A stretch of 53,102 bases of DNA from a virus. Position numbers and translations under genes: made by a program. The notes under the pieces were generated by a model. It was not told where the DNA came from and did not search any database. It saw only the letters and a list, made by a program, of their open reading frames with translations. Below, piece by piece: positions 9,193 through 21,581 of the stretch (within the stretch, counting starts at the first letter, position 1; the number at the start of each line of letters is the position of its first letter). Location of the stretch: IMG/VR virus record IMGVR_UViG_3300050501_000425; one strand, 5' to 3'.

Positions 9193-9471
9193 CCATGTCA
9201 TGTCAACTCCTTTCCGGTGCCCATGGGAGAGCACCATGACACCGCGCCGTCGGGTCCTGGATCGCCAGGAAACGCTTTGTGTCATGGTGCTCATGGTGAA
9301 CGGCTTCGCTGCCGCTCAGCCCGAACATCAAGCTCGCTTCGCTCGCTTGATGAAGGCGCAGGTACGGCTCCCCGGTCCATGCCGCCCAGAGTGTCGAAGA
9401 AGCAACATGGTGGATCATGACCGTCCTTGCCCGACAAAGACAGAACTAGGAAAACGGGTTTGACGCCTTCG

Positions 9472-9543
9472 TGCCCTCGGCTGGGTTCGAACCAGCGTCC
9501 TCGCCGTGCTCTTGGCGCGCTCATCCCACTGAGCTACGGGGGC
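9472..9543 (-). ncRNA. tRNA-like RNA (72 nt) with a defective anticodon arm
   Basis: Minus sense: GCCCCCG UA GCUC AGUGGGAU GAGC ... GCUGG UUCGAAC CCAGC CGAGGGC A. D and T arms are canonical. The acceptor has one C.A mismatch. The anticodon arm is only a 4-bp stem (CGCC/GGCG) with loop AAGAGCAC and no U33. No CCA is encoded. Confidence 0.6.
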
Positions 9544-12197: not shown

Positions 12198-12270
12198 CTG
12201 CCAGGGCAGGAGTCGAACCTGCTGCTTCCACACCGTCCCGGACTGCGCAGTCAAGCGGGACATCCTGGCA
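12198..12270 (-). ncRNA. tRNA-sized mimic (73 nt): acceptor plus T arm, with D and anticodon arms replaced by one long hairpin
   Basis: UGCCAGG ... GCAGG UUCGACU CCUGC CCUGGCA G has a perfect 7-bp acceptor and a canonical T arm. Positions 10-36 form GUCCCG-CUU-GACU-GCGC-AGUC-C-CGGGAC. It is followed by a degenerate copy of the GGUGCGA motif (about 12165-12195). Confidence 0.5.
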
Positions 12271-12509
12271 TTGCTCCGTGGTGAGTGTCTGGGCCTCGCC
12301 CAGATGCCCCGAGCCCAAAGCGGGAGCACCCCAAACCCCAGTCCAGGATCCTTGGCCTGGAGATTGCTTTACCACGGATCTTTGGTGAAGAGTCCTTATC
12401 CCATCATTGTCGGACGCTGCTTACGCCAGCCCGACTCCGGAATGATGTCGCGTACATCATCTCCAGTCCTAGAACGCGCGTATCTTCGGCTGTGACTTCG
12501 GACTCTCCG

Positions 12510-12593
12510 TGGGGAGGCAGGATTCGAACCTGCGCAAGGGCAACCACATCATTGTGGATTCGGTACCAACTCCTCATTACGCCTACGTCCCCT
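12510..12593 (-). ncRNA. Aberrant tRNA-like RNA
   Basis: Canonical T arm GCAGG UUCGAAU CCUGC. Acceptor is partial (5 of 7 bp). The anticodon-position hairpin CCAC-AAUGAU-GUGG has a 6-nt loop. I could not draw a clean D arm. Confidence 0.4.
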
Positions 12594-12725
12594 TGACTCG
12601 GTGGCACAGTGAACATCCAGGCGAAGCCCGTGATCCGTTGTCTGGATGCTGGATCCACTTAGTGCCACCGGTTTGTTACTAGCATCGGGGCTACGGTCTC
12701 GACCGCGCCGGGGCGCCGAGCTACG

Positions 12726-12798
12726 CTGACCCAGCAGGACTCGAACCTGCAACCTGATGATTAACAGCCACCTGCGCTGCCGATTGCGCCATGGGTCA
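12726..12798 (-). tRNA. tRNA-Asn (anticodon GUU)
   Basis: Full cloverleaf drawn by hand. Acceptor UGACCCA/UGGGUCA, U8, D arm GCGC-AAUCGGCA-GCGC, anticodon arm GGUGG-CUGUUAA-UCAUC, variable AGGUU, T arm GCAGG-UUCGAGU-CCUGC, discriminator G. No CCA is encoded. Confidence 0.85.
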
Positions 12799-13028
12799 AG
12801 ATGCCGGTGACAGCCCATGACCAAGACTGCCACCGGCGTACGACTGTTTCGGGGACCGCCAGTCGCCAGCGGTCTGTGAGCCCGGATAGGAACGGGCACC
12901 CCGGCGGGAGATGAGTCTTTGGTTGTGGCCATGCAGCTTTGCGTCCCCATGGCCACCATGGACGTCCCAGTCCAATGGGAGTCTTAGTGATTAAGCCTGC
13001 GAAGCAGGTCTGGGATGAACGAAGTGAA

Positions 13029-13172
13029 GACCTCAGAGTTCAAGGGCTGTCTCGGAAATGGGAGCGGACTCGAACCGCCAACCTTCCGGTCTCAACCGGA
13101 CGCTCTACCAATTGAGCTACCCCGATGAATTGTTGGTATCGGGAAGTATCCGAAACATTCGCACCTGAGATC
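13029..13172 (-). ncRNA. Y RNA-like module F (normal-order tRNA-like cloverleaf inside the conserved stem)
   Basis: GAUCUCA-GGUGCGA-AUGUUU-CGGAUACUUC ... GCUC-AAUUGGUA-GAGC G UCCGG-UUGAGAC-CCGGA AGGUU GGCGG-UUCGAGU-CCGCU ... CUUGAACUC-UGAGGUC. The closing stem is 7 bp with one G.U. Confidence 0.7.
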
Positions 13173-13630
13173 GTAGATCTTTGGGCTGGTTGGGTGCCAG
13201 AAGTTCTGACCAGCATCCTGGTCACTAAGTGAGATAAGGACCATCATTCTGGCCACTAAGTGCTTGGGTGGGGACGCCGGAACCTTTCCCTAGGGAGGTC
13301 CGTTCTCTTTTTCCATCTTCTACTAGCGCGCATGATGCGCCTGTTCCTTTGCGCCAGCACGTGTTCGTCAGGGGGCGACCGCCTGGGCGTCTGGCATCCC
13401 CACGTCTTTGTGCACCGTTTTTGGGCCACCTACGGTGCCAGAGGTGCCGTTGGCACGAGAGTACCGCCCGTCTTCACCGGCGAGGATGAAGTCTTTGGTG
13501 GACCACGGAAACCCGCAAGAGTCAGCCGCACGAAACGACTGCTTTTGTCTAACCCGTGGCCCTTTGCCGCCCCCCTATGAATGGGCAGCGTTCCCAATCG
13601 CATTGCCTTCTACAGCAATGAACTTTTTGT

Positions 13631-13781
13631 GATTGCAGAGTTCAAGATTGTCTCGGGCTTGTTCAAAAAGACCGCTGCTCGTACCAGCTGAGCTACAGAA
13701 GCCGATGGCCCCCAGGGGGACTTGAACCCCCGACCTGCGGTTTGTGAATTCGAAGTATCCGAAACTGTCGCACCTGCAATC
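13631..13781 (-). ncRNA. Y RNA-like module E (permuted tRNA-like domain)
   Basis: GAUUGCA-GGUGCGA-CAGUUU-CGGAUACUUC-GAAUUCACAA-ACCGC-AGGUC-GGGGG-UUCAAGU-CCCCC-UGGGGGC-CAUCG-GCUUCUG-UA-GCUC-AGCUGGUAC-GAGC-A-GCGGU-...-CUUGAACUC-UGCAAUC. The closing stem is a perfect 7 bp. The acceptor is loop-closed. Confidence 0.75.
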
Positions 13782-14141
13782 TGGATCCCGACCATCCGGC
13801 AGTCGGTGTCCAAGACCATGCCCCACGAGGGAACACGGTGGGTGATTCTTGCTCTGGCCACACCATTCGCCACCAGTCGCCGCGATTGGATAGGACCGGT
13901 GTGGCCAGAAGTCTTGGTGGATGCCCCCGGCATTCCTGAACGGGGGCATCCGTTTCCCCACCTGACAAGGAGGGAAGCTTGTGGGCGGGGGTGTCAGTAC
14001 TGAGCACTTTCGTGAGTCTGCTTCCAGGCGACCCCTGCGACATCGCACACCGAGGTGTGCGCGGCGACCGTGGCCATCCATGCCAGGTCTTTCACCTGGA
14101 CCCCCATTTCCAGCCGCCCTGTCAGGAGCCGGAAGTTTGTT

Positions 14142-14281
14142 GATTCCCGAGTTCAGGGGTGGCGCGGAAATTTTAGCGCTCTACCACTTGAGCTACAGCC
14201 CGAAGAGTCGGGCCGTCAGGATTCGAACCTGAAACCTCTCGTTCCCAAAACGAAGTAACCGTGCCGATCGCACCGGGAATC
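14142..14281 (-). ncRNA. Y RNA-like module D (permuted tRNA-like domain)
   Basis: GAUUCCC-GGUGCGA-UCGGCA-CGGUUACUUC-GU-UUUGG-GAACGAGAGGUU-UCAGG-UUCGAAU-CCUGA-CGGCCCG-ACUCUU-CGGGCUG-UA-GCUC-AAGUGGUA-GAGC-G-CUAAA-...-CUGAACUC-GGGAAUC. Both 7-bp stems are fully paired. Confidence 0.75.
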
Positions 14282-14335
14282 ACAGATTCCTTCGCGCATA
14301 AGGCGTAGCCGTTGCGTCGGGAATCAAAGCTTTGT

Positions 14336-14462
14336 GGTGTCGGAGTTCATGGTTGTCGCGGGGAGCCCCTAGCCATAGGGCAGTCATCACCACGGGGGTG
14401 ACGGGTGGATTCGAACCATCAATCGTTGTCACGAAGTAACCGCAACATTCGCACCCGACATC
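14336..14462 (-). ncRNA. Y RNA-like module C (permuted tRNA-like domain)
   Basis: GAUGUCG-GGUGCGA-AUGUUG-CGGUUACUUC-...-GAUGG-UUCGAAU-CCACC-CGUCACC-CCCGU-GGUGAUG-ACU-GCCC-UAUGGCUAG-GGGC-...-AUGAACUC-CGACACC. The closing stem is 6 of 7 bp. Confidence 0.7.
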
Positions 14463-14474
14463 AAAAGTTATTAT

Positions 14475-14580
14475 CTGCCACGAGTTCAGGGTTCATTCGG
14501 AATGGTGTTGCTTTCCGGGGTTCTCACATCCCGGGTATATCCACTGGTGAGAAGTATCCGAACAATTCGCACCGTGGCGC
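14475..14580 (-). ncRNA. Y RNA-like module B (no tRNA-like domain)
   Basis: GCGCCAC-GGUGCGA-AUUGUU-CGGAUACUUC ... CUGAACUC-GUGGCAG. The closing stem is only 5 bp. There is an internal hairpin CCGGG/CCCGG and no T-loop box. Confidence 0.55.
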
Positions 14581-14626
14581 GAAAGTCAATGTAGTTGTCA
14601 ACAAACAGCAGGGTCATGAGCGCCCG

Positions 14627-14718
14627 TGGAGCCCCCGGAGTTCAACATGGTCACGGGCTTATTCTTCGGTTCCGTGAAAGAGACAGATGAAGTAACCGTA
14701 ACCTTCGCACCCGGGGGC
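14627..14718 (-). ncRNA. Y RNA-like module A (no tRNA-like domain, 3' CCA encoded)
   Basis: GCCCCCG-GGUGCGA-AGGUUA-CGGUUACUUC ... UUGAACUC-CGGGGGC-U-CCA. The closing stem is 7-8 bp. Internal hairpin is CACGG/CCGUG. Confidence 0.6.
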
Positions 14719-14753
14719 GCCATGTCGCTCAGCTGCTTACGAAAGAAAGCATG

Positions 14754-14924
14754 TCATACGACGGACGTGATGTCAAGTCGGTTTTCTCCGTGCTGCGGGC
14801 AGGAGCACGGTGCCTTACACCACTTGCAGGTCTGGCGGCACAGCTTGTGCAGGTCGGGATCCTCGTGCTCATGCTGGCAGGCCGTGGATATGTAGATGTG
14901 CTTAGGGCCGGGGAGGGTCTTCAT
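14754..14924 (-). CDS. Small Cys/His-rich (zinc-binding type) protein (56 aa)
   Basis: My translation: MKTLPGPKHIYISTACQHEHEDPDLHKLCRQTCKWCKAPCSCPQHGENRLDITSVV. This is the last coding sequence before the RNA array. Confidence 0.6.
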   Translation of the reverse strand: MKTLPGPKHIYISTACQHEHEDPDLHKLCRQTCKWCKAPCSCPQHGENRLDITSVV

Positions 14925-15129
14925 GATCTTGTTCTACCTTCCGTAGGAACCATTCCCGGGGCATGCAGGCCACCATTGTGAACCATCCCATACCAGTGAA
15001 CCCGGACAGGACATACCGCATGTCATCGACCACAAATCCGTACAGTGACATCGCGGCGCACCCGGTGGCCATGGCCCAAAAGATGATGCCCAGCCTGCGC
15101 ACAGCGACCCTCCTGGTCATGGGTCTCAT
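14902..15129 (-). CDS. Membrane protein (75 aa)
   Basis: ORF track. Contains GIIFWAMATGCAAMSLYGFVV and GMGWFTMVACM. Start is ATGA-coupled. Confidence 0.6.
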   Translation of the reverse strand: MRPMTRRVAVRRLGIIFWAMATGCAAMSLYGFVVDDMRYVLSGFTGMGWFTMVACMPREWFLRKVEQDHEDPPRP

Positions 15130-15335
15130 CAGTACTCACCCCCGCCGGGATAATCGGTGAAGTCGGGCTGTTTGGGCAGCGTAAGGGGGTAGGGCTGGCC
15201 CGCGTCGGCCATCAGCCGGTAGTCGTCCAGGAAGTCATCCAGGATATCCCAGGGCAGTGACCCCCGGTCATAGGTGTCCCGGCGCTCCTTGATGATCGCC
15301 TCCACCACATCCCCGCGCATCGGCTGGTGCCTCAT
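15129..15335 (-). CDS. Hypothetical protein (68 aa)
   Basis: ORF track. ATGA coupling at both ends. Confidence 0.65.
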   Translation of the reverse strand: MRHQPMRGDVVEAIIKERRDTYDRGSLPWDILDDFLDDYRLMADAGQPYPLTLPKQPDFTDYPGGGEY

Positions 15336-15559
15336 GGCCTGCCCTGTCGGTCCCTGAGGTAGTCCATGACCATCGCGGCCGTGGTGCTCCTGGAGAACGT
15401 GATATTGCCACCATCGGGGAACACGATGGCGAAACGGTAGTCATGCTGGGGCAATGTCGTCTCGAAGAGGGCCTGCGCCTTCTCTTCCCCGAATATCCGG
15501 CGAGCCTCCTGTGCCACATCGACTATGTTCACAGTGGCAAGTACTTGATCCTCGATCAT
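15332..15559 (-). CDS. Hypothetical protein (75 aa)
   Basis: Internal ATG 15559 is preceded by GGGGAGAGAAA. Product begins MIEDQVLATVNIVDVAQEARRIF... Confidence 0.6.
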   Translation of the reverse strand: MIEDQVLATVNIVDVAQEARRIFGEEKAQALFETTLPQHDYRFAIVFPDGGNITFSRSTTAAMVMDYLRDRQGRP

Positions 15560-15785
15560 TTTCTCTCCCCTTCCTCTTGGTCCAGAGTATCCAGTTGGCC
15601 CCATAGATGCCCAGGTATACGGGTGCCCAGGCCACAAAGCCCAGCTGAGAGGTGCACAACCCGTAGGTGACCGCGAACACCTGGCCCAGCAAGCAGATCA
15701 CCCAGCCGACACGCCGATAGTTCCCGGCCAGGATCAGCCCGACCGCCGGGATGCCTTGCACGATAAATGATCCCCATTGCTCCAT
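15441..15785 (-). CDS. Multi-TM membrane protein with a questionable 3' end
   Basis: ATG 15785 follows GGGGAGGAG. Product MEQWGSFIVQGIPAVGLILAGNYRRVGWVICLLGQVFAVTYGL...WILW. The last roughly 40 codons overlap gene 15332..15559 and look non-coding. Confidence 0.5.
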   Translation of the reverse strand: MEQWGSFIVQGIPAVGLILAGNYRRVGWVICLLGQVFAVTYGLCTSQLGFVAWAPVYLGIYGANWILWTKRKGRENDRGSSTCHCEHSRCGTGGSPDIRGREGAGPLRDDIAPA

Positions 15786-15848
15786 AATCTCCTCCCCATC
15801 CATGTGAAAACGGGCGGCGACCATTGTCACCGCCCGCCCCCGTACTCC

Positions 15849-15998
15849 TTACATTCTTTCGGGCATCTCCAGTGGCATCAGAAGGGCCGCCAGGATGCCC
15901 CCGGCACCGGCCAGCATCCAGGCCGGTCGTTGCACCAGCAAGCCCAGGCACAGGATCACGCCGCAGATGGCCAGCACCACGATCTTGAGTGAACTCAT
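15849..15998 (-). CDS. Small 2-TM membrane protein (49 aa)
   Basis: MSSLKIVVLAICGVILCLGLLVQRPAWMLAGAGGILAALLMPLEMPERM. ATGA-coupled to the Ro60 stop. Confidence 0.55.
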   Translation of the reverse strand: MSSLKIVVLAICGVILCLGLLVQRPAWMLAGAGGILAALLMPLEMPERM

Positions 15999-17566
15999 CA
16001 GAACGGCCACTGCCCGGCGGCACGGCGCTCCAGCACCGGCAGCAACTTGAACGCCTGGTCAGTCAACCCGCCGATGGTGATGCGGGTCGGGGTTCCCGAC
16101 TCCATGTGCCCCACCTTGTACCCGGCCAAGTTGAACGTGATCACCGGGATGTGGGCCGGGACTGCCGCTGCCACATCACGATAGGTGTGATAGTTGGCCT
16201 GCTCGTCGGTGAGGATGACCACCCGATCGTGCGCCCTGAAATTGGTGCTCACCGCCGCCTCGGTGGCCGTACCCCCGTTCTGGAAGTAGCCACGGCGGAA
16301 CGCCTCCAGCATCACCAGCAGCGATGCCCCCCTGGCCAGCGGGAACACCTTGGAGTAGTTGGAGTACGAGACCACGTCGGCGTGCTCACACCGCTGCGAA
16401 AGCGCCAGCCCGAAGATGGCCGCCGCGTCCCAGCGCCGCAGTCCGCTCTTGTCACTCATGCTGTCGGCCATCGAGCCCGAGGTGTCGATCAGGATCAGGG
16501 TGCGACCGGCGAACTGCGGGATGTTGTTCAGCGACGCCTGGAGCCCCTGCTCAAGTGGCAGGTGCCAGCGCACGTTGGACACAGCCCGGAAGGCCGACAA
16601 GAACCGCATCGGCAACTGACGGGATCGGGCCACTTGCTCCGGGTCACCGAGGCGATCAGCCACCAAGGCGTAGGCGTTGTGGCCCACCCCGGCCTCATCG
16701 AAGTTGCGCAGGTTGCGCAGCAGGGCCATGTAGCCCATGGTCGGGATAAGCGCCTCCCACAGATCCTTCTTCGGAATCTTGGAACCAACCAGGGACAGCA
16801 CGTCCTCCCACGTCATCCCGGCAGCCCGAAGGGTTCCGGGGTCCAGGAACATGTGCTGCCCGTAGTCCTTGGCGGCTGCGTCACGAAGGAAGGCATTCTT
16901 GTGGATCATGGTCAGTGACGACGGGATGCCCTCGCGGCCGTGGCGCCGGTCGATCAGATGCTTGAACAGCACATCCTGGCCCAGCTTGTCCGGGGACGCA
17001 TGGGTCAGCTCAAGCACATCACCGAAGCGGACACCATGAGACGCCGTGTCGTACTTGAGGGTGTTGTACTCGTTGTAAAGACGCGTCGCGGCATCAGCGA
17101 TCCCGCGCTTGATCGGCTTGGGAATCTGCTGGCCTGGATAGGCAGCCTTCCAGTAGCCGATCGCCTCACCGGGCTCGTCGGCACGTGCCAGCACCGAGTT
17201 GACGATCCGACGGCCACCAGGAAGGTTGGACTTCACCATGGCGCAGGCGGCCTCGATCGCGCCCACCAGGGAGGCGGTGCGCATGTTGGCCTCGCCGCGA
17301 AGCCACGGTAGGAAGCGCCCCATCCATTCGGGATCGGTGCGGGCCACCTCGTGAACCAGCGTCTTGAAGCGGGCGTCACGGGCAACCCCGGTCTCATAGA
17401 AGGTGTCCATGCCGACGAAGTTGCTCACCGCCAGCAGGAACAGCTCACCCTTGGCGTCACGGGTGAACCCGGGCGCCCGGTTTCCGGTACGCGCCAACGG
17501 GTCCGGGGTGGACACGATGGGCTGATTGATCGGGAAGCCCTTGTTGGGCTTGTTGAAACGGCTCAT
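15998..17566 (-). CDS. rsr: Ro60-related protein (TROVE domain plus C-terminal vWA domain)
   Basis: 522 aa. The HEAT-like TROVE region has MGYMALLRNLRNF and RQLPMRFLSAFRAV. The C-terminal vWA has MIDAS LILIDTSGSMAD. RBS is GAGAGGAA. Confidence 0.85.
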   Translation of the reverse strand: MSRFNKPNKGFPINQPIVSTPDPLARTGNRAPGFTRDAKGELFLLAVSNFVGMDTFYETGVARDARFKTLVHEVARTDPEWMGRFLPWLRGEANMRTASLVGAIEAACAMVKSNLPGGRRIVNSVLARADEPGEAIGYWKAAYPGQQIPKPIKRGIADAATRLYNEYNTLKYDTASHGVRFGDVLELTHASPDKLGQDVLFKHLIDRRHGREGIPSSLTMIHKNAFLRDAAAKDYGQHMFLDPGTLRAAGMTWEDVLSLVGSKIPKKDLWEALIPTMGYMALLRNLRNFDEAGVGHNAYALVADRLGDPEQVARSRQLPMRFLSAFRAVSNVRWHLPLEQGLQASLNNIPQFAGRTLILIDTSGSMADSMSDKSGLRRWDAAAIFGLALSQRCEHADVVSYSNYSKVFPLARGASLLVMLEAFRRGYFQNGGTATEAAVSTNFRAHDRVVILTDEQANYHTYRDVAAAVPAHIPVITFNLAGYKVGHMESGTPTRITIGGLTDQAFKLLPVLERRAAGQWPF

Positions 17567-18325: not shown

Positions 18326-19189
18326 TCATTCAACCACAAATACCCCCTGCCCCTGACGGCCTTCGACCACGCCGGTGGCCTTGAGGATCAGGATGGCTGA
18401 GCGTACGGATCCGTAGCTGGCCTCGAACTCTTCTCGCAGGGCGCTGGTGCTGGGAAGTTTGCCGTCGGGATAGGCGCCGGAGGCGATCCGCTCGCGCAAG
18501 GTGTCCACGATGATCAGATACTTGAAGTCCGTCATAGGCAACACAGTAGACCATGGTGCTAATGTGAGCACATGGGGCTCGATCGGACCGAGAAGATCTT
18601 CACTTTCGGGCCACCCTCTCTCCAGCCTCCCAAGAAGGGTGCGATAGGAAACATGACACCTATGATCCCTTGACCATTGCGCAACTGTTTTCTTCTCACC
18701 ATTTATCGTTACCCAGCGATTGGTGGTCTTGTTGTTCATGTTTTCACTGCGCGTAACCCAGCGACAATTCTGTGGCCCATAGTTGCCCGTAGTGTCTATT
18801 CGGTCAATCTGTAGACCATCGACGAATCCGTTGGCTAGTGCCCATTTCCTGAATTCCTCAAAGCTCTCTCGCCATTGGCGGATGACCTTTATGCCTCGGG
18901 CGCCGTAATATTTATATGCGCTGCTTGAGGGGGTGTGGCATCTTCCTTTCATGCTTGCCCATGCCTTATACAGGGGAGACCAGCGCCCATTGGCGGCATC
19001 CCCATGCTTCCTTTGTCTCATGGCCGCGAGATCCCGCTGTAGGCAGCCACAGGACTTACTCTTCCCGGACCTGAGCGCATGTCGGGCTACCGCGCGTCTT
19101 GTGCCACAGACGCATATGCATTCCGAGTGGCGTGGCCTTCCCGTGGCTAGTCCCACCACGGTCCATCGGCCAAATTCGGAAGCGACCAT
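18326..19189 (-). CDS. Nuclease-associated/HNH-type DNA-binding module fused in frame to a GntR-type winged HTH
   Basis: YKAWASMKGRCHTPSSSAYKYYGARGIKV...LQIDRIDTTGNYGPQNCRWVTRSENMNNKT, followed without a stop by MTDFKYLIIVDTLRERIASGAYPDGKLPSTSALREEFEASYGSVRSAILILKATGVV (GntR HTH). ATG 19189 was chosen as the start. Confidence 0.6.
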   Translation of the reverse strand: MVASEFGRWTVVGLATGRPRHSECICVCGTRRAVARHALRSGKSKSCGCLQRDLAAMRQRKHGDAANGRWSPLYKAWASMKGRCHTPSSSAYKYYGARGIKVIRQWRESFEEFRKWALANGFVDGLQIDRIDTTGNYGPQNCRWVTRSENMNNKTTNRWVTINGEKKTVAQWSRDHRCHVSYRTLLGRLERGWPESEDLLGPIEPHVLTLAPWSTVLPMTDFKYLIIVDTLRERIASGAYPDGKLPSTSALREEFEASYGSVRSAILILKATGVVEGRQGQGVFVVE

Positions 19190-19259
19190 GGGCGAAGTAT
19201 ACAAGCAGTAAATTGCATCGTAGACTATGACATCTAGGATGGGGATGGTCAGGTTGGGC

Positions 19260-21581
19260 ATGTCGCTGAAGCAGCGGGTTGCGGCGATGCCCCGTGCCCA
19301 GAGGATGGACTTCCTGCAGTCCCTGGACCCCGCCATCCTGGACATGATCGCCAGGGAGGAATGGTTCTGGGTGGCCCGCCCGGAACAGATGCCGCCCAAG
19401 GGCGACTGGTCCATCTGCCTGATGCTGGCGGGCCGGGGCTTCGGCAAGACGCGCTCGGGGGCCGAGTGGATCGTGCAACGGACCCTGGATCATCCCTATG
19501 ACTCCTCTGGGTTTCCCACCGAACGCCTGATCATGGCCTACAACATTTCTGACGCCGTGGCCTCATGCGCCGAGGGTCCCTCGGGGGTGCTGCGGGTGTT
19601 GCAGCGCATGGGATTTTCCGAGCTGGGAAAGTCCCGCCGGGTCGATGACCCCACCAAGATGTACACCTTCACCAAAAGCCCCAAGCCTTATGTGCGCTTG
19701 CTCGAGACCGGCTCGGTCATCCACTTCACCGGCGCCACAGTGGACGCGGCCCGGTCCAAGAACCTGGCCGATGTCTGGTGCGTGGCCGAAGGTGAGCCAG
19801 TCCTGACCGAGCGCGGCATGGTGGCCATAGAGCGGGTGCTCCCGGGTGACAGAGTTTGGACGCAGACGGGATTCAAGGAGGTTCTGCAATCCGGGCGTAC
19901 CGCTGAGGGCAGGGAGGTCTTGCGGATTGTCACCACCGAGGGGGAGCTTCGAGTAACCCCGGACCATGTGGTGTGGGCCAATGGCGGCTGGATCCGGGCC
20001 GACCGGCTTGAGGCTGGCGATAGTATGGCTACATGTCTGCCTCAAATGGACCTGTGCCCAGCGAAGAGCCAGCCTATCAGCGATGGGACAGGGAGTCCTG
20101 GTTCTTCAACAAGCGCAAGGGATACTACTACAGCCGAGACGGGTTCCTTCTCCACCGAGCCGTCTGGATCGCTTTGCACGGACCGATTCCCGAGGGATTC
20201 GATGTCCATCACCGGGATGGGAAACGGTGGAATTGCGACCCAGCAAACCTTGAGCTATTGCCTCATGGAGAGCACATGCGTCTCACGTGGCAGCTGCGTA
20301 CCGACGCCGACAAATATGACAGCTCCGGCCGGTCCCAGCGGTCCAGTGAGGGATTGCGGCGCATGTGGGCCAACCGGCAGCCCCGGGCAGTCCTTTGTGC
20401 CGAGTGTGGCAATGAGTACCTGTCCACCGGAATGCGGGCCAAATGGTGCTCGGACGCATGCCGGAAAGCGGGATCGGCCAGGCTTTCGCGGAACAAGCGT
20501 GCTCAGCGTAATCAGGGAACACCGGCGAGCTGATGTCTACGATTTGACGATCGCCGATGCCCATCATTTCTTCGCGGGGTCGGCGCTTGTCAAGATCCAC
20601 AACTGCGACGAGCCCATAAAATGGGCCAATCCCGAGGAAACCTGGCGCGAGGGCATCCGACCGGCACTTCGGGCCGACATCCCCGGGGACAAACCCAGGG
20701 CGCTGGTGACCACCACCCCCAAACCGATCCTGTTGCTCAAGAACTGGGTGTCCGAACCCCGGCGGTGGAAGGTCGTCATCATCCGGGGCAGCACCTTCGA
20801 CAACATGATCAACCTGTCTGAGGATGCCGTCGAGGAGCTGCGGGAAACCTATGAGGGCACCGCCCTGGGCCGCCAGGAGCTGTACGGCGAGCTTCTCGAT
20901 GATGTGTCCGGCGCCCTGTTCAGCTTCTCCGTCATCCATGCCAACCGGGTGGAGATCGGCCCGGAGAAGGTGGCCCACCGCACCGTCGGGGTGGATCCCG
21001 GCCTGACCGGTGATGAGGACGGCGACGAGATGGGTGTCATCGTGGCCTGCCGGGACCACAAGGACCATGCCTATGTGATCGCCGATGAGACCACGAAGCT
21101 GGCCGGACGCGATGCGGCACTGCATGCCTGGCATGTCTATGCCCGCTATGGCGCCGACACCCTGGTCTATGAGTCCAACCTGGGCAAGGCCTGGATGCAC
21201 CAGGTGTTCACCGACGCCTTCAGGGAACTTCAGCGCTCCGGCTTATTCCCCACTGAAGTCATCAACCCTCCGCTCGTGCCCGTCTTTTCAAATCAGGGGA
21301 AAAAGCTGCGGGCTGAGCCCGTGGCCATGCGCTATTCGCAGGGGCGAGTGCATCACATCGGCACCTTCGACAAGCTCGAGACCCAGATGCTCACCTTCGA
21401 TCCTTTGTCGTCCAAGGCGTCCCCGGACCGCCTGGATGCCCTCGTCCATGCGGTCCGGCATCTGATGGATGGTGAGCGCAAGCGCTCCCGGATCCTGTCG
21501 CCTTTGGGTCTGCCGGTACCCGAACTCGGCTACAACCCGGTGGGCACCATGCGGACCATGGGTGAATTCGGGATCGGATGA
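19260..21581 (+). CDS. terL: Terminase large subunit, interrupted by an intein
   Basis: N-terminus ...EEWFWVARPEQ..., Walker A LAGRGFGKT, Walker B region ADVW|CDE restored after intein removal. The C-terminal nuclease region has GVDPG...DEMG. ATG 19260 is preferred within ORF 19227..21581. Confidence 0.85.
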   Translation: MSLKQRVAAMPRAQRMDFLQSLDPAILDMIAREEWFWVARPEQMPPKGDWSICLMLAGRGFGKTRSGAEWIVQRTLDHPYDSSGFPTERLIMAYNISDAVASCAEGPSGVLRVLQRMGFSELGKSRRVDDPTKMYTFTKSPKPYVRLLETGSVIHFTGATVDAARSKNLADVWCVAEGEPVLTERGMVAIERVLPGDRVWTQTGFKEVLQSGRTAEGREVLRIVTTEGELRVTPDHVVWANGGWIRADRLEAGDSMATCLPQMDLCPAKSQPISDGTGSPGSSTSARDTTTAETGSFSTEPSGSLCTDRFPRDSMSITGMGNGGIATQQTLSYCLMESTCVSRGSCVPTPTNMTAPAGPSGPVRDCGACGPTGSPGQSFVPSVAMSTCPPECGPNGARTHAGKRDRPGFRGTSVLSVIREHRRADVYDLTIADAHHFFAGSALVKIHNCDEPIKWANPEETWREGIRPALRADIPGDKPRALVTTTPKPILLLKNWVSEPRRWKVVIIRGSTFDNMINLSEDAVEELRETYEGTALGRQELYGELLDDVSGALFSFSVIHANRVEIGPEKVAHRTVGVDPGLTGDEDGDEMGVIVACRDHKDHAYVIADETTKLAGRDAALHAWHVYARYGADTLVYESNLGKAWMHQVFTDAFRELQRSGLFPTEVINPPLVPVFSNQGKKLRAEPVAMRYSQGRVHHIGTFDKLETQMLTFDPLSSKASPDRLDALVHAVRHLMDGERKRSRILSPLGLPVPELGYNPVGTMRTMGEFGIG
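19779..20603 (+). mobile_element. Intein (275 codons) in the TerL Walker B region
   Basis: Starts CVAEGEPVLT, contains TPDHVVW, and ends ALVKIHN followed by +1 Cys (CDEPIKW). Confidence 0.8.
20033..20533 (+). CDS. HNH homing endonuclease ORF nested out of frame inside the intein
   Basis: +2 frame relative to terL. Contains AVWIALHGPIPEGFDVHHRDGKRWNCDPANLELLPHGEHMRL plus CAECG...CSDAC. Confidence 0.75.
   Translation: MSASNGPVPSEEPAYQRWDRESWFFNKRKGYYYSRDGFLLHRAVWIALHGPIPEGFDVHHRDGKRWNCDPANLELLPHGEHMRLTWQLRTDADKYDSSGRSQRSSEGLRRMWANRQPRAVLCAECGNEYLSTGMRAKWCSDACRKAGSARLSRNKRAQRNQGTPAS

What the first reader, a model, noticed from the sequence alone, without database searches (positions are those of the whole stretch)
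13631..14462. Circularly permuted tRNA-like domains with loop-closed acceptor stems (modules C, D, E)
Inside modules C, D and E the element order is: anticodon-stem 3' strand, variable region, T arm, acceptor 3' strand, a 5-6 nt loop, acceptor 5' strand, then D arm and anticodon-stem 5' strand. In module D the acceptor is CGGCCCG-ACUCUU-CGGGCUG, 7 of 7 pairs including one G.U. In module C it is CGUCACC-CCCGU-GGUGAUG. In module E it is UGGGGGC-CAUCG-GCUUCUG, with 3 Watson-Crick and 4 G.U pairs, so it is valid only as minus-strand RNA. Module E also has the anticodon stem GCGGU/ACCGC. T loops (UUCGAAU, UUCAAGU) and D loops (AAGUGGUA, AGCUGGUAC) are canonical. This topology matches YrlA-type bacterial Y RNAs, where the tRNA mimic hangs from the Ro-binding stem through its anticodon stem. 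Each module mimics a different tRNA body, so the phage carries a small panel of distinct tRNA decoys.
Basis: partly seen in the sequence, partly recalled or inferred. Interest (0 to 1): 0.85.

Follow-up and report, generated by a model that had tools for sequence, protein, structure and literature searches.

The report
Phage Y RNAs with tRNA-like domains
The three elements are real, and they belong to a tandem set of six small RNA genes beside a phage Ro60 gene; this RNA class (YrlA-type Y RNAs that mimic permuted tRNAs) has been known since 2014, so the locus is a well-supported new example and not a new kind of system.

Summary
On the minus strand, modules C (14336-14462), D (14142-14281) and E (13631-13781) each have a T arm, then a loop-closed 7-bp acceptor hairpin, then a D arm.

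These are Y RNAs. A 522-aa TROVE+VWA protein (Ro60/Rsr, 15998-17566, same strand) lies 1.3-3 kb upstream. Six modules share a 5' GGUGCGA-N6-CGGNUACUUC motif, a 3' UGAACUC motif and a covarying terminal stem.

A covariance model built without any window sequence scores D, E and C at 112, 76 and 58 bits, and finds nothing else significant apart from the other three modules. Acceptor, T and terminal helices covary across relatives. The 5' motif alone retrieves loci that carry rsr in 29/50 viral and 45/120 bacterial cases, against 0/39 controls.

Rfam YrlA matches D and E below its cut-off, but chromosomal actinobacterial YrlA RNAs also fall below it.

Only E hangs from an anticodon-like stem. D carries a complete anticodon arm and, once de-permuted, reads as tRNA-Pro(UGG).

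The function is inferred: Ro60-bound RNPs, probably cut by RNase P. A decoy role is unproven.

This is a new member of a known kind. Neighbouring module F, a different permutation with an encoded NCCA, is the more unusual element.

The parts
15998..17566 (-). Ro60/Rsr ortholog (522 aa, TROVE + VWA). It is the predicted protein partner of the Y RNAs.
   Evidence: Pfam TROVE E 6.1e-19 and VWA_2. PHROG 850 'RNA-binding protein' E 2e-45. PDB 9KOP/9L5Y, the Thermus phage phiLo Ro60, E 7e-22. About 44% identity to 'Ro-like RNA binding protein' of Streptomyces, Gordonia and Arthrobacter phages.
14631..14718 (-). Module A: a short Y RNA (YrlB-like) forming a long hairpin with the pyrimidine-rich loop CUCUUUC. 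It has no tRNA-like domain.
   Evidence: 5' motif at 14689-14711 and 3' motif at 14638-14644. R2 44.9 bits, E 2e-9. MFE fold.
14475..14580 (-). Module B: a Y RNA with a non-tRNA effector domain. Orthologs are present in L215 and L029.
   Evidence: Motifs. R2 27.9 bits, E 3e-5. The ortholog L215 5819-5923 is nearly identical in its interior.
14336..14462 (-). Module C: a YrlA-type Y RNA. Parts: terminal stem 14456-14460 with 14338-14342; 5' motif 14433-14455; short V hairpin 14423-14434; T arm 14404-14420; loop-closed acceptor 14385-14403; deviant D arm 14365-14381; 3' motif 14343-14349.
   Evidence: R2 57.8 bits, E 1e-12. Coordinates. The ortholog L029 2524-2653 has acceptor CCUGGCC/GGCCAGG, also 7/7.
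14142..14281 (-). Module D: a YrlA-type Y RNA that carries a whole tRNA-Pro(UGG)-like body permuted at position 26|27. Parts: 5' motif 14252-14274; anticodon-like arm 14238-14254; variable loop 14233-14237; T arm 14216-14232; acceptor hairpin 14196-14215; D arm 14178-14193; helix 2 3' strand 14161-14167; 3' motif 14149-14155.
   Evidence: R2 112.2 bits, E 4e-26. Rfam YrlA 36.6 bits. The de-permuted sequence is called tRNA-Pro(tgg) by ARAGORN. Its best match among 149 ARAGORN-called tRNAs in the fetched loci is the tRNA-Pro(UGG) of phage Atuin, z 4.3; that tRNA is also the best match to the body alone.
13631..13781 (-). Module E: a YrlA-type Y RNA of the Salmonella-like layout. Parts: terminal stem 13775-13781 with 13631-13637; 5' motif 13752-13774; helix 3 13749-13754 with 13662-13667; anticodon-like stem 13737-13741 with 13671-13675; T arm 13715-13731; acceptor hairpin 13696-13714; D arm 13677-13693; 3' motif 13638-13644.
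   Evidence: R2 75.6 bits, E 4.5e-17. Rfam YrlA gives a full-length match at 35 bits. Orthologs L215 6678-6813 (acceptor CGGAUCC/GGGUCCG) and L219 1953-2111 (CAAGGCC/GGUCUUG) keep 7/7 pairs.
13029..13172 (-). Module F: a Y RNA with a differently permuted tRNA-like body. The order is acceptor 3' strand - ACCA-containing loop - acceptor 5' strand (13120-13144), then D arm (13102-13117), anticodon-like arm with a 6-nt loop (13085-13100), then T arm (13063-13079).
   Evidence: R2 45.2 bits. Rfam tRNA 45 bits over model positions 5-66 only, and ARAGORN 'tRNA-???'. Three orthologs keep a 7/7 hairpin, 5 of 7 pairs covary, and the loop always starts NCCA.
12725..12798 (-). An ordinary tRNA-Asn(GUU) gene following the array on the same strand.
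   Evidence: ARAGORN and Rfam tRNA 63 bits.

Best explanation
Modules C, D and E are three of six tandemly encoded phage Y RNAs of the actinobacterial YrlA/YrlB class. They sit just downstream of the phage's own Ro60 (Rsr) gene and in the same orientation.

Anatomy (shown). Each RNA has:
- a closing terminal helix;
- a conserved bulged helix (5' GGUGCGA paired across from 3' UUGAACUC) that resembles the Ro60-binding site of other Y RNAs;
- a second helix followed by the invariant NUACUUC;
- a variable 'effector' domain.

In C, D and E the effector domain is a tRNA body whose acceptor stem is closed by a 5-6 nt loop. The RNA ends therefore leave the tRNA fold elsewhere: through an anticodon-like stem in E, and at the D-stem/anticodon-stem junction in D. 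D keeps a full anticodon arm and looks like tRNA-Pro(UGG).

Mechanism (inferred from characterised relatives). The stem binds the phage Ro60 ring. The L-shaped tRNA mimic is displayed as a docking or recognition surface for tRNA-binding host factors and for an exoribonuclease such as PNPase. The 7-bp acceptor plus 5-bp T stem makes these RNAs likely RNase P substrates, giving two-piece RNAs held together by the Y stem, as in M. smegmatis YrlA.

A panel of six different effector domains would let one Ro60 form several distinct RNPs during infection.
For: Shown here:
1. A Ro60 gene lies on the same strand within 3 kb.
2. The window holds six and only six modules with the shared 5' and 3' motifs. 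The 5' motif: 6 hits against 0.04 expected. The 3' motif: 17 hits window-wide against 5.55 expected, six of them closing the modules. Models R1 and R2 agree, and R2 contains no window sequence.
3. Covariation supports the terminal stem, helix 2, T stem and loop-closed acceptor.
4. Rfam YrlA is the best non-tRNA hit for D and E.
5. The 5' motif alone retrieves loci carrying rsr in 29/50 viral and 45/120 genome cases, against 0/39 control loci.
6. Isolated actinophages with Ro genes (Atuin, BRock, GiJojo, Neville) have 2-3 such unannotated modules next to Ro.
7. The V hairpin CCACUUCUAAUGG of a family member (L043, a contig other than the window) matches the experimentally studied M. smegmatis YrlA, as judged from the published probe sequence.
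8. The Levitt pair covaries as reported for YrlA: A15:U48 in D and G15:C48 in E (sequence; PMC4201824).

From the literature:
- Rsr-bound M. smegmatis YrlA is cleaved by RNase P and gains CCA; Y RNAs tether Ro60 to PNPase (PMC4201824).
- A phage Ro60 with its Y-like RNAs binds host PNPase (PMC12135203).
- The crystal structure shows YrlA is a true tRNA fold (10.1101/312249).
Against: - There are no expression, binding or processing data for this phage.
- Rfam RF02553 scores (35-37 bits) are far below the gathering score of 69, and C is not detected by Rfam at all. Chromosomal actinobacterial YrlA RNAs also score only 43-48 bits.
- The published GNCGAAN0-1G motif is matched only in its core: the modules read UGCGAA, UGCGAU or UGCGAC.
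- No sigma-70-like promoter or minus-strand intrinsic terminator was found in the region.
- No PNPase, RtcB or other RNA-repair gene was found among the neighbours tested.
- What the tRNA-like domain actually does is unknown even for the model YrlA RNAs.
Confidence: 0.82

Rival explanations
1. The modules are decoys or sponges that work mainly without Ro60. The phage would make tRNA look-alikes, including a tRNA-Pro(UGG) copy with its anticodon loop, to soak up host tRNA-targeting defence enzymes (anticodon nucleases, toxin RNases) or tRNA-modifying enzymes. The Y stem would only stabilise the RNA.
For: - D carries the full bacterial tRNA-Pro identity set as I know it (C1-G72, A73, UGG anticodon, G37) and an anticodon loop identical to a genuine phage tRNA-Pro.
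- Many family members have 7-nt loops that look like anticodon loops.
- Phage Ro loci sit inside tRNA gene arrays.
Against: - E and C have no anticodon loop.
- Across the family, the 'anticodon' does not match the isotype of the tRNA body (2/26 concordant, permutation p 0.52).
- The Ro-stem motif and its linkage to rsr are the most conserved features, which argues that Ro60 binding is central.
Confidence: 0.1
2. They are permuted or split tRNA genes whose transcripts mature into translationally active tRNAs, as with the permuted tRNA genes of Cyanidioschyzon merolae or two-piece tmRNA. RNase P and 3' processing would open the acceptor loop.
For: - The 7-bp acceptor plus 5-bp T stem is the RNase P substrate geometry.
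- De-permuted D, E and F are accepted as tRNAs by ARAGORN.
- Module F and its orthologs encode NCCA directly after the acceptor 3' strand.
- M. smegmatis YrlA is processed this way.
Against: - E lacks an anticodon loop, and C lacks both an anticodon arm and a normal D arm.
- F has a 6-nt anticodon loop.
- Removing the roughly 45-nt Y stem and re-joining the chain would need a splicing endonuclease and ligase pathway not reported in bacteria (10.1101/312249).
- The Y-stem motif is more conserved than the tRNA bodies.
Confidence: 0.04
3. They are decayed remnants of tandem tRNA genes, that is, dimeric-tRNA false positives where the T arm of one gene lies next to the D arm of the next, and they have no function.
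For: The published YrlA search flagged dimeric tRNAs as possible false positives. The region is rich in tRNA-like fragments.
Against: - The acceptor halves are separated by only 5-6 nt and pair 7/7.
- Pairing is kept by compensatory changes in orthologs that differ at most positions.
- Every module is framed by the same motifs and a covarying terminal stem.
- No first-tRNA D or anticodon arm, and no second-tRNA T arm, is present.
Confidence: 0.02

Closest known systems
Mycobacterium smegmatis YrlA (and YrlB), actinobacterial Y RNAs (Chen et al. 2014, PMC4201824)
   Same: - Same order: T arm, loop-closed 7-bp acceptor, D arm.
- A V hairpin with a 7-nt loop lies upstream of the T arm. The published probe complements CCACUUCUAAUGG, as in family member L043.
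- Encoded next to rsr on the same strand.
- More than one Y RNA per locus, processed from one precursor.
- The partner YrlB is a hairpin with a pyrimidine-rich loop, like module A.
   Different: - Here the genes are phage-encoded and there are six modules, not two.
- They lie downstream of rsr, not upstream.
- D's V hairpin and body together match one specific tRNA (Pro-UGG).
[quoted passage not shown]
Salmonella Typhimurium YrlA (Rfam RF02553; crystal structure PDB 6CU1, bioRxiv 10.1101/312249)
   Same: It is a Ro-binding stem plus a tRNA-like domain with a closed acceptor loop and no anticodon loop. Module E aligns to the whole Rfam model (positions 1-114) with the tRNA body hanging from an anticodon-like stem.
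   Different: - The Salmonella acceptor is 6 bp and is not an RNase P substrate; here the acceptor is 7 bp.
- Scores are about half the Rfam gathering score.
- The window's RNAs have an extra helix 2 and the NUACUUC element.
Thermus phage phiLo Ro60 with Yrl1/Yrl2 (PMC12135203; PDB 9KOP, 9L5Y)
   Same: A phage-encoded Ro60 has Y-like RNAs encoded beside it, and a CGAA-type motif in a stem-bulge-stem. The window's Ro60 matches this protein in the PDB (E 7e-22).
   Different: - phiLo has two RNAs, upstream of the gene, and they are not described as tRNA-like.
- The host phylum differs.
- Binding to Ro60 and host PNPase was shown there, not here.
Deinococcus radiodurans Yrn1/Yrn2
   Same: Several Y RNAs lie beside rsr and are co-transcribed with a tRNA. 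Yrn1 has a T arm, and its D-like and T arms come in the normal tRNA order, as in module F.
   Different: Both strands of the metazoan-like Ro helix are recognisable there. Yrn1's tRNA likeness is weak and no orthologs were found by homology search. Modules C-E follow the YrlA order, not the Yrn1 order.
Circularly permuted tRNA genes (Cyanidioschyzon merolae) and two-piece tmRNA genes (own knowledge for tmRNA)
   Same: The acceptor ends are joined by an intervening loop in the primary transcript, and that loop is opened by RNase P and 3' processing. In module F the loop starts with NCCA, as in permuted tmRNA genes.
   Different: Those RNAs mature into working tRNA or tmRNA. Here the chain break is occupied by a conserved Ro-binding stem, and several modules lack a usable anticodon loop.

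Membership tests
YrlA-type bacterial/phage Y RNA | Encoded within about 4 kb of a Ro60 (TROVE) gene and on the same strand | tested here: met
   rsr is at 15998-17566(-); modules C-E are at 13631-14462(-), 1.5-2.4 kb downstream. Criterion from PMC4201824.
YrlA-type bacterial/phage Y RNA | 5' motif GNCGAAN0-1G (putative Ro60 contact, resembling the metazoan GGUCCGA) | tested here: inconclusive
   All six modules have GGUGCGA. The CGA core and the downstream G are present, but the first position is U, not G. D and E read CGAU and CGAC in place of CGAA. The motif co-occurs with rsr elsewhere: 29/50 and 45/120 loci against 0/39 controls.
YrlA-type bacterial/phage Y RNA | T stem-loop with the tRNA T-loop consensus | tested here: met
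   C: GAUGG-UUCGAAU-CCACC (4/5 pairs). D: UCAGG-UUCGAAU-CCUGA. E: GGGGG-UUCAAGU-CCCCC. The T stem covaries, with 3 of 5 pairs changed on both sides.
YrlA-type bacterial/phage Y RNA | Closed stem-loop (AS) between the T and D arms in the position of the acceptor stem | tested here: met
   7/7 pairs in C, D and E and in all nine orthologous or related modules checked. Six of 7 pairs have double-sided changes over 18 sequences.
YrlA-type bacterial/phage Y RNA | D stem-loop with conserved G18 G19 and a covarying Levitt pair 15:48 | tested here: met
   D: GCUC-AAGUGGUA-GAGC with A15:U48. E: GCUC-AGCUGGUAC-GAGC with G15:C48. C deviates: GCCC-UAUGGCUAG-GGGC, with the GG retained.
YrlA-type bacterial/phage Y RNA | Reaches the Rfam RF02553 gathering score (69 bits) | tested here: not met
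   D scores 36.6 bits, E 35.0 bits, and C is not reported. Chromosomal actinobacterial YrlA next to rsr also score only 30.8-48.3 bits (six of eight hits at 43-48), and other actinophages 31-44 bits. The cut-off therefore excludes this whole subfamily.
YrlA-type bacterial/phage Y RNA | Bound by Ro60/Rsr in vivo; carries tRNA modifications (pseudouridine 55, dihydrouridine) | not testable with these tools
   This needs immunoprecipitation and modification mapping in infected cells.
Canonical tRNA gene | A contiguous cloverleaf with free 5' and 3' acceptor ends and a 7-nt anticodon loop | tested here: not met
   ARAGORN and the Rfam tRNA model do not call C, D or E in their native order. D and E are called only after manual de-permutation, and C not even then.
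Circularly permuted tRNA gene (matures to a functional tRNA) | An intact anticodon arm, and removable flanks forming a splice (bulge-helix-bulge) motif | tested here: not met
   E has no anticodon loop and C has no anticodon arm. The flanks are the conserved Y stem, not a bulge-helix-bulge motif. No bacterial splicing endonuclease is reported.

The most novel reading that the evidence does not exclude
The six-module array would be a phage-encoded display rack of processed, CCA-ended tRNA mimics tethered to Ro60.

- Module D is a complete tRNA-Pro(UGG) broken only at position 26|27.
- Module F, with its orthologs, is a previously undescribed permutation, broken between the T stem and the acceptor 3' strand, whose acceptor loop encodes the discriminator plus CCA.

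After RNase P cleavage these would be two-piece RNAs with a genuine acceptor end, possibly chargeable. They would bait isoacceptor-specific host enzymes, such as anticodon nucleases, synthetases or modification enzymes, onto a Ro60-nuclease complex as an anti-defence or tRNA-surveillance device.

The two very highly conserved structured spacers (13782-14110 and about 13262-13407) would be further, unknown RNA components of the same system.
Probability: 0.15. Interest if true: 0.75.

Novelty: new member of a known kind. Interest (0 to 1): 0.4.

Why it matters
- It confirms that a reader working from raw sequence correctly recognised a Ro60-Y RNA locus in an uncharacterised actinobacteriophage lineage (portal at most 29% and Ro60 about 44% identical to isolated phages).
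- Phage Ro60 genes commonly travel with arrays of 2-7 different Y RNAs. These are missing from GenBank annotations and fall below Rfam's threshold, so they are systematically overlooked.
- The locus offers concrete test material for a long-open question: what the tRNA-like domain of bacterial Y RNAs is for. One Ro60 sits beside six effector domains. One domain copies tRNA-Pro(UGG) in full, and another encodes its own CCA end.

Tried and rejected
- Megablast of 12900-14800 against 50,697 phage records gave no match. Blastn gave only tRNA-like hits, so there is no close sequenced relative among isolates.
- Rfam at gathering threshold reported only two tRNAs. YrlA appeared only with the E-value threshold.
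- The promoter/terminator scan found no sigma-70-like promoter and no minus-strand terminator in 12300-16200. Transcript boundaries remain unknown.
- I tested whether the V-loop 'anticodon' generally matches the isotype of the tRNA-like body. With ARAGORN calls that overlap modules excluded, only 2 of 26 were concordant (permutation p 0.52). An earlier apparent concordance came from ARAGORN calls that were themselves modules. General isoacceptor mimicry is rejected; only D's resemblance to tRNA-Pro stands.
- The Rfam-style pairing GGAA/UUCC as an anticodon stem in D is rejected. It overlaps helix 2 and is not conserved in the L029 ortholog, whereas the V hairpin covaries.
- Scans for more F-type modules recovered only L029; two of the patterns were mis-spaced. 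F-type is known from three contigs only.
- Two reviews (PMC10870794, PMC6047535) and the supplementary tables of Chen et al. 2014 are not held. I could not check how many Y RNAs per phage were reported before.
- No RNA-repair or PNPase gene was found among the ORFs scanned.
Full report
**What is in the sequence.** Read on the minus strand, window 13028-14720 contains six tandem modules.
- Each starts with GGUGCGA-N6-CGGNUACUUC: 6 matches against 0.04 expected, and none elsewhere in the 53 kb.
- Each ends with UGAACUC.
- The 5-8 bases just outside these motifs pair with each other to close the module.
- I call the modules A (14631-14718), B (14475-14580), C (14336-14462), D (14142-14281), E (13631-13781) and F (13029-13172).
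- The finding's coordinates (13631-14462) span exactly C, D and E with their terminal stems.

**Check of the observation.**
- The three acceptor hairpins are 7/7 paired. E's has 3 Watson-Crick and 4 G.U pairs, so it can only form in the minus-strand RNA.
- The T loops are UUCGAAU/UUCAAGU and the D loops are AAGUGGUA/AGCUGGUAC.
- D has A15:U48 and E has G15:C48. This is the same Levitt-pair covariation reported for YrlA RNAs (PMC4201824).
- The T arm, closed acceptor, D arm order is therefore confirmed for all three modules.

**More than chance.**
- A covariance model built from 14 modules of other contigs, with no window sequence (R2), was run over both strands of the window with filters off.
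- It scored D at 112.2 bits (E 4e-26), E at 75.6, C at 57.8, F at 45.2, A at 44.9 and B at 27.9. The next hit was 17 bits (E 0.014).
- On an 18-sequence alignment, 93.8% of cells in my stated structure form standard pairs. The figure is 73.8% in column shuffles (0/500 reach the observed value) and at most 47.5% with partners slid by 1-3 columns.
- Changes on both sides occur in 6 of 7 acceptor pairs, 6 of 9 terminal-stem pairs and 3 of 5 T-stem pairs (RNAalifold agrees).
- Orthologous or related modules in relatives of this phage keep 7/7 acceptor pairs with quite different sequences. For E: UGGGGGC/GCUUCUG in the window, CGGAUCC/GGGUCCG in L215, CAAGGCC/GGUCUUG in L219. For D: CGGCCCG/CGGGCUG in the window, CUGGUCC/GGACCGG in L029. 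For C: CGUCACC/GGUGAUG in the window, CCUGGCC/GGCCAGG in L029.

**What it is.**
- The ORF at 15998-17566 on the same strand encodes a 522-aa protein with a TROVE domain (E 6e-19) and a VWA domain. It matches PHROG 850 and the solved Ro60 of Thermus phage phiLo (E 7e-22).
- It is about 44% identical to the 'Ro-like RNA binding proteins' of Streptomyces, Gordonia and Arthrobacter phages.
- The window is a phage: it has a terminase with an intein, a portal and a primase-polymerase. It is only distantly related to isolates, with portal identity at most 29%.
- Chen et al. 2014 defined candidate YrlA RNAs as matches within 4 kb of Ro60 on the same strand. All six modules meet this.
- With an E-value threshold, Rfam's YrlA model (RF02553) is the best non-tRNA hit for D (36.6 bits, E 1e-5) and E (35 bits, full length, E 3e-5). 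Both are below the gathering score of 69.
- The same holds for YrlA-like RNAs next to rsr in Streptomyces, Nocardia, Streptosporangium and Planomonospora chromosomes (30.8-48.3 bits) and in isolated actinophages (31-44 bits). The cut-off misses the whole actinobacterial subfamily.

**Independent link between the RNA motif and Ro60.**
- I scanned public collections with the 5' RNA motif alone.
- An Rsr homolog is present in the short stored flank in 29 of 50 viral loci and 45 of 120 bacterial loci, mostly Actinomycetes.
- It is present in 0 of 39 control loci fetched with an unrelated pattern.
- Model R1 finds 130 modules in 43 sources.
- Arrays of several different modules beside rsr are the rule. 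L042, L052 and L041 have six each; L018 and L048 have five; relatives L215 and L219 have six and seven.
- Among isolated phages, Atuin has three, and BRock, GiJojo and Neville have two each. None is annotated, and in Neville they are overlain by small hypothetical CDSs.
- The published Northern probe for M. smegmatis YrlA complements UUACCACUUCUAAUGGAAUGGUC. That is the same V hairpin as family member L043.
- This ties the family to an RNA shown experimentally to bind Rsr, to be cut by RNase P and to receive CCA.

- Only E matches the description 'tRNA body hanging from the Y stem by its anticodon stem'. Its ACCGC/GCGGU stem continues through UUCGAA/UUUGAA and UUUCGG/CCGAGA into the Ro-stem.
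- D has a complete hairpin upstream of the T arm: UUCGU-UUUGGGA-ACGAG. It is followed by exactly five nucleotides (AGGUU), the geometry of an anticodon arm plus a class-I variable loop.
- Joining D's parts in tRNA order gives a sequence that ARAGORN calls tRNA-Pro(UGG).
- Its best match among 149 ARAGORN-called tRNAs in the fetched loci is the annotated tRNA-Pro(UGG) of Arthrobacter phage Atuin (score 41, z 4.3), with an identical 11-nt anticodon loop region. That tRNA is still the best match when the anticodon arm is left out.
- D also has C1-G72, A73 and G37. To my knowledge this is the identity set of bacterial tRNA-Pro.
- D is therefore a whole tRNA broken at position 26|27, linked to helix 2 by single-stranded linkers.
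- The hairpin covaries with its L029 ortholog (UUCGC/GCGAG). The GGAA/UUCC pairing used by the Rfam alignment is not conserved.
- C has a short hairpin (UCGU-GACA-ACGA), a two-base linker and an atypical D arm that keeps the GG.
- Chen et al. called this position the 'V' (variable) arm. For D the anticodon-arm reading fits better.
- The idea does not generalise. Across 26 family modules with such hairpins, the loop 'anticodon' agrees with the isotype of the best-matching tRNA body in only 2 cases (p 0.52).

**How it most likely works.**
- Shown: the RNA architecture, its conservation and its linkage to Ro60.
- Inferred from characterised relatives: the GGUGCGA/UUGAACUC bulged helix binds the Ro60 ring. 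In vertebrates the equivalent is GGUCCGA/UUGACU, and Ro60 contacts mainly the 5' strand.
- The variable domain is the effector module. In D. radiodurans, S. Typhimurium and phage phiLo, Y RNAs bridge Ro60 to PNPase.
- The 7-bp acceptor stacked on a 5-bp T stem is the RNase P substrate geometry. In M. smegmatis YrlA this leads to cleavage in vivo, trimming and CCA addition while the RNA stays Rsr-bound.
- I therefore expect C, D and E to be cut at the acceptor loop into two pieces held together by about 20 bp of Y stem.
- Y RNAs of M. smegmatis and D. radiodurans come from polycistronic precursors, in one case together with a tRNA. Here the array is followed by tRNA-Asn on the same strand, so a single precursor is plausible.
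- I found no promoter or terminator by consensus scan.
- The 'decoy' role is possible but untested.

**Comparison and novelty.**
- It also reports them in 254 bacterial species and 22 phages.
- Modules C-E are thus new members of a known kind. They are divergent enough to fall below Rfam's threshold, and they sit in a new phage lineage.

**What goes beyond the published picture.**
- (a) Size and diversity of the array: six different effector domains for one Ro60.
- (b) D's completeness as a specific tRNA.
- (c) Module F. There the acceptor 3' strand lies upstream of the 5' strand: UCCCGAU-ACCAACAAUUC-AUCGGGG. The D arm, a 6-nt-loop anticodon arm and the T arm follow.
- The three F orthologs (window, L029, L215) keep 7/7 pairs, with 5 of 7 pairs covarying. 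In all three the loop begins with discriminator plus CCA: ACCA, GCCA, GCCA.
- That is a different permutation, broken at 65|66, with a templated CCA end. I found it in these three contigs only.

**Limits.**
- Nothing here shows expression, Ro60 binding, processing or function.
- Model R1 contained the window's own modules; R2 did not.
- The tRNA-Pro assignment of D rests on one module and a modest comparison set.

Noticed in passing
window 13029-13172 (-); orthologs L029 2375-2517, L215 7238-7377: Module F is a Y RNA whose tRNA-like body is permuted differently from C-E. The order is acceptor 3' strand, a loop starting N-CCA (ACCA, GCCA, GCCA), acceptor 5' strand, D arm, anticodon arm, T arm. 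The hairpin is 7/7 paired in all three contigs and 5 of 7 pairs covary. The anticodon loop is 6 nt in the window (UUGAGA) and L215 (UUUGGA), and 7 nt in L029 (UUGAAAA, which ARAGORN calls tRNA-Phe). I found it only in these three contigs.
   Followed up: partly
window 13782-14110 (-): The spacer between modules D and E is strongly structured (z -4.33). It is 93-94% identical to L215 6419-6507 and 6542-6677, which makes it more conserved than rsr (73% aa) or the Y modules. One hairpin shows a compensatory A-U to G-C change. The window has an extra 66 nt (about 13918-13983) carrying an 11-bp GC hairpin. There is no Rfam match. It may be another ncRNA or a processing or regulatory element.
   Followed up: partly
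window ~13262-13407 (-); L215 6978-7205; L029 3212-3409: A conserved element in the E-F spacer is closed by a long-range helix (GGGGAUGCC ... GGCGUCCCC) that covaries among three contigs. It encloses the invariant CCCAGGCGGUCGCCCC and GGACCUCCCUAGGGAAAGG. In L029 it lies after the array, not inside it. There is no Rfam match.
   Followed up: partly
window 14631-14718 and 14475-14580 (-): Modules A and B are Y RNAs without a tRNA-like domain. A is a long hairpin with the pyrimidine-rich loop CUCUUUC, like the published YrlB/Yrn2 type. B has a conserved non-tRNA interior shared with L215 and L029.
   Followed up: partly
L003 5899-6331 (Arthrobacter phage Atuin); L004 3422-3911 (BRock); L002 3412-3911 (GiJojo); L001 3506-3877 (Neville): Published actinophage genomes carry 2-3 Y RNA modules next to their Ro gene, and none is annotated. 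In Neville they overlap small 'hypothetical protein' CDSs 88-90, which are probably miscalled.
   Followed up: partly
window 9471-9543 (-), 12503-12576 (-), ~12200-12225 (-): There are further tRNA-like pieces without a Y stem. One is a cloverleaf with an aberrant anticodon arm, which ARAGORN calls 'tRNA-???' with a 2-nt anticodon. The other two are isolated T-arm-like hairpins downstream of tRNA-Asn. Part of this stretch (12586-12689) is conserved in L029 and L215.
   Followed up: no
window, 3' of modules C, D, E (e.g. 14133-14140, 13622-13630); many IMG/VR loci: A short trailer, ACAAA(N)CUU or CCACAACUU, follows the terminal stem of many modules in the window and in unrelated contigs. It may be a processing signal.
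   Followed up: no
L219 1085-2503: A more distant relative (rsr 62% identical) has seven modules. One is an E-like module whose acceptor loop starts GCCA. Another has an acceptor hairpin, a D arm and an anticodon arm with the loop CUCAUAC (CAU, Met-like), but no T arm.
   Followed up: no
window 19227-21581 (+) and 18326-19447 (-): The large terminase subunit is interrupted by an intein (Hint / intein-splicing domains between the ATPase and nuclease parts). The adjacent minus-strand ORF combines an HNH endonuclease with a GntR-type helix-turn-helix.
   Followed up: no
L217 (Ga0075431_100114402), L215, L216: A JGI metagenome contig, L217, encodes a protein 100% identical to the C-terminal half of the window's Rsr, and its modules A-D give bit scores identical to the window's. 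The same phage was therefore sampled independently. L216 (81%) and L215 (73%) come from sister samples.
   Followed up: no
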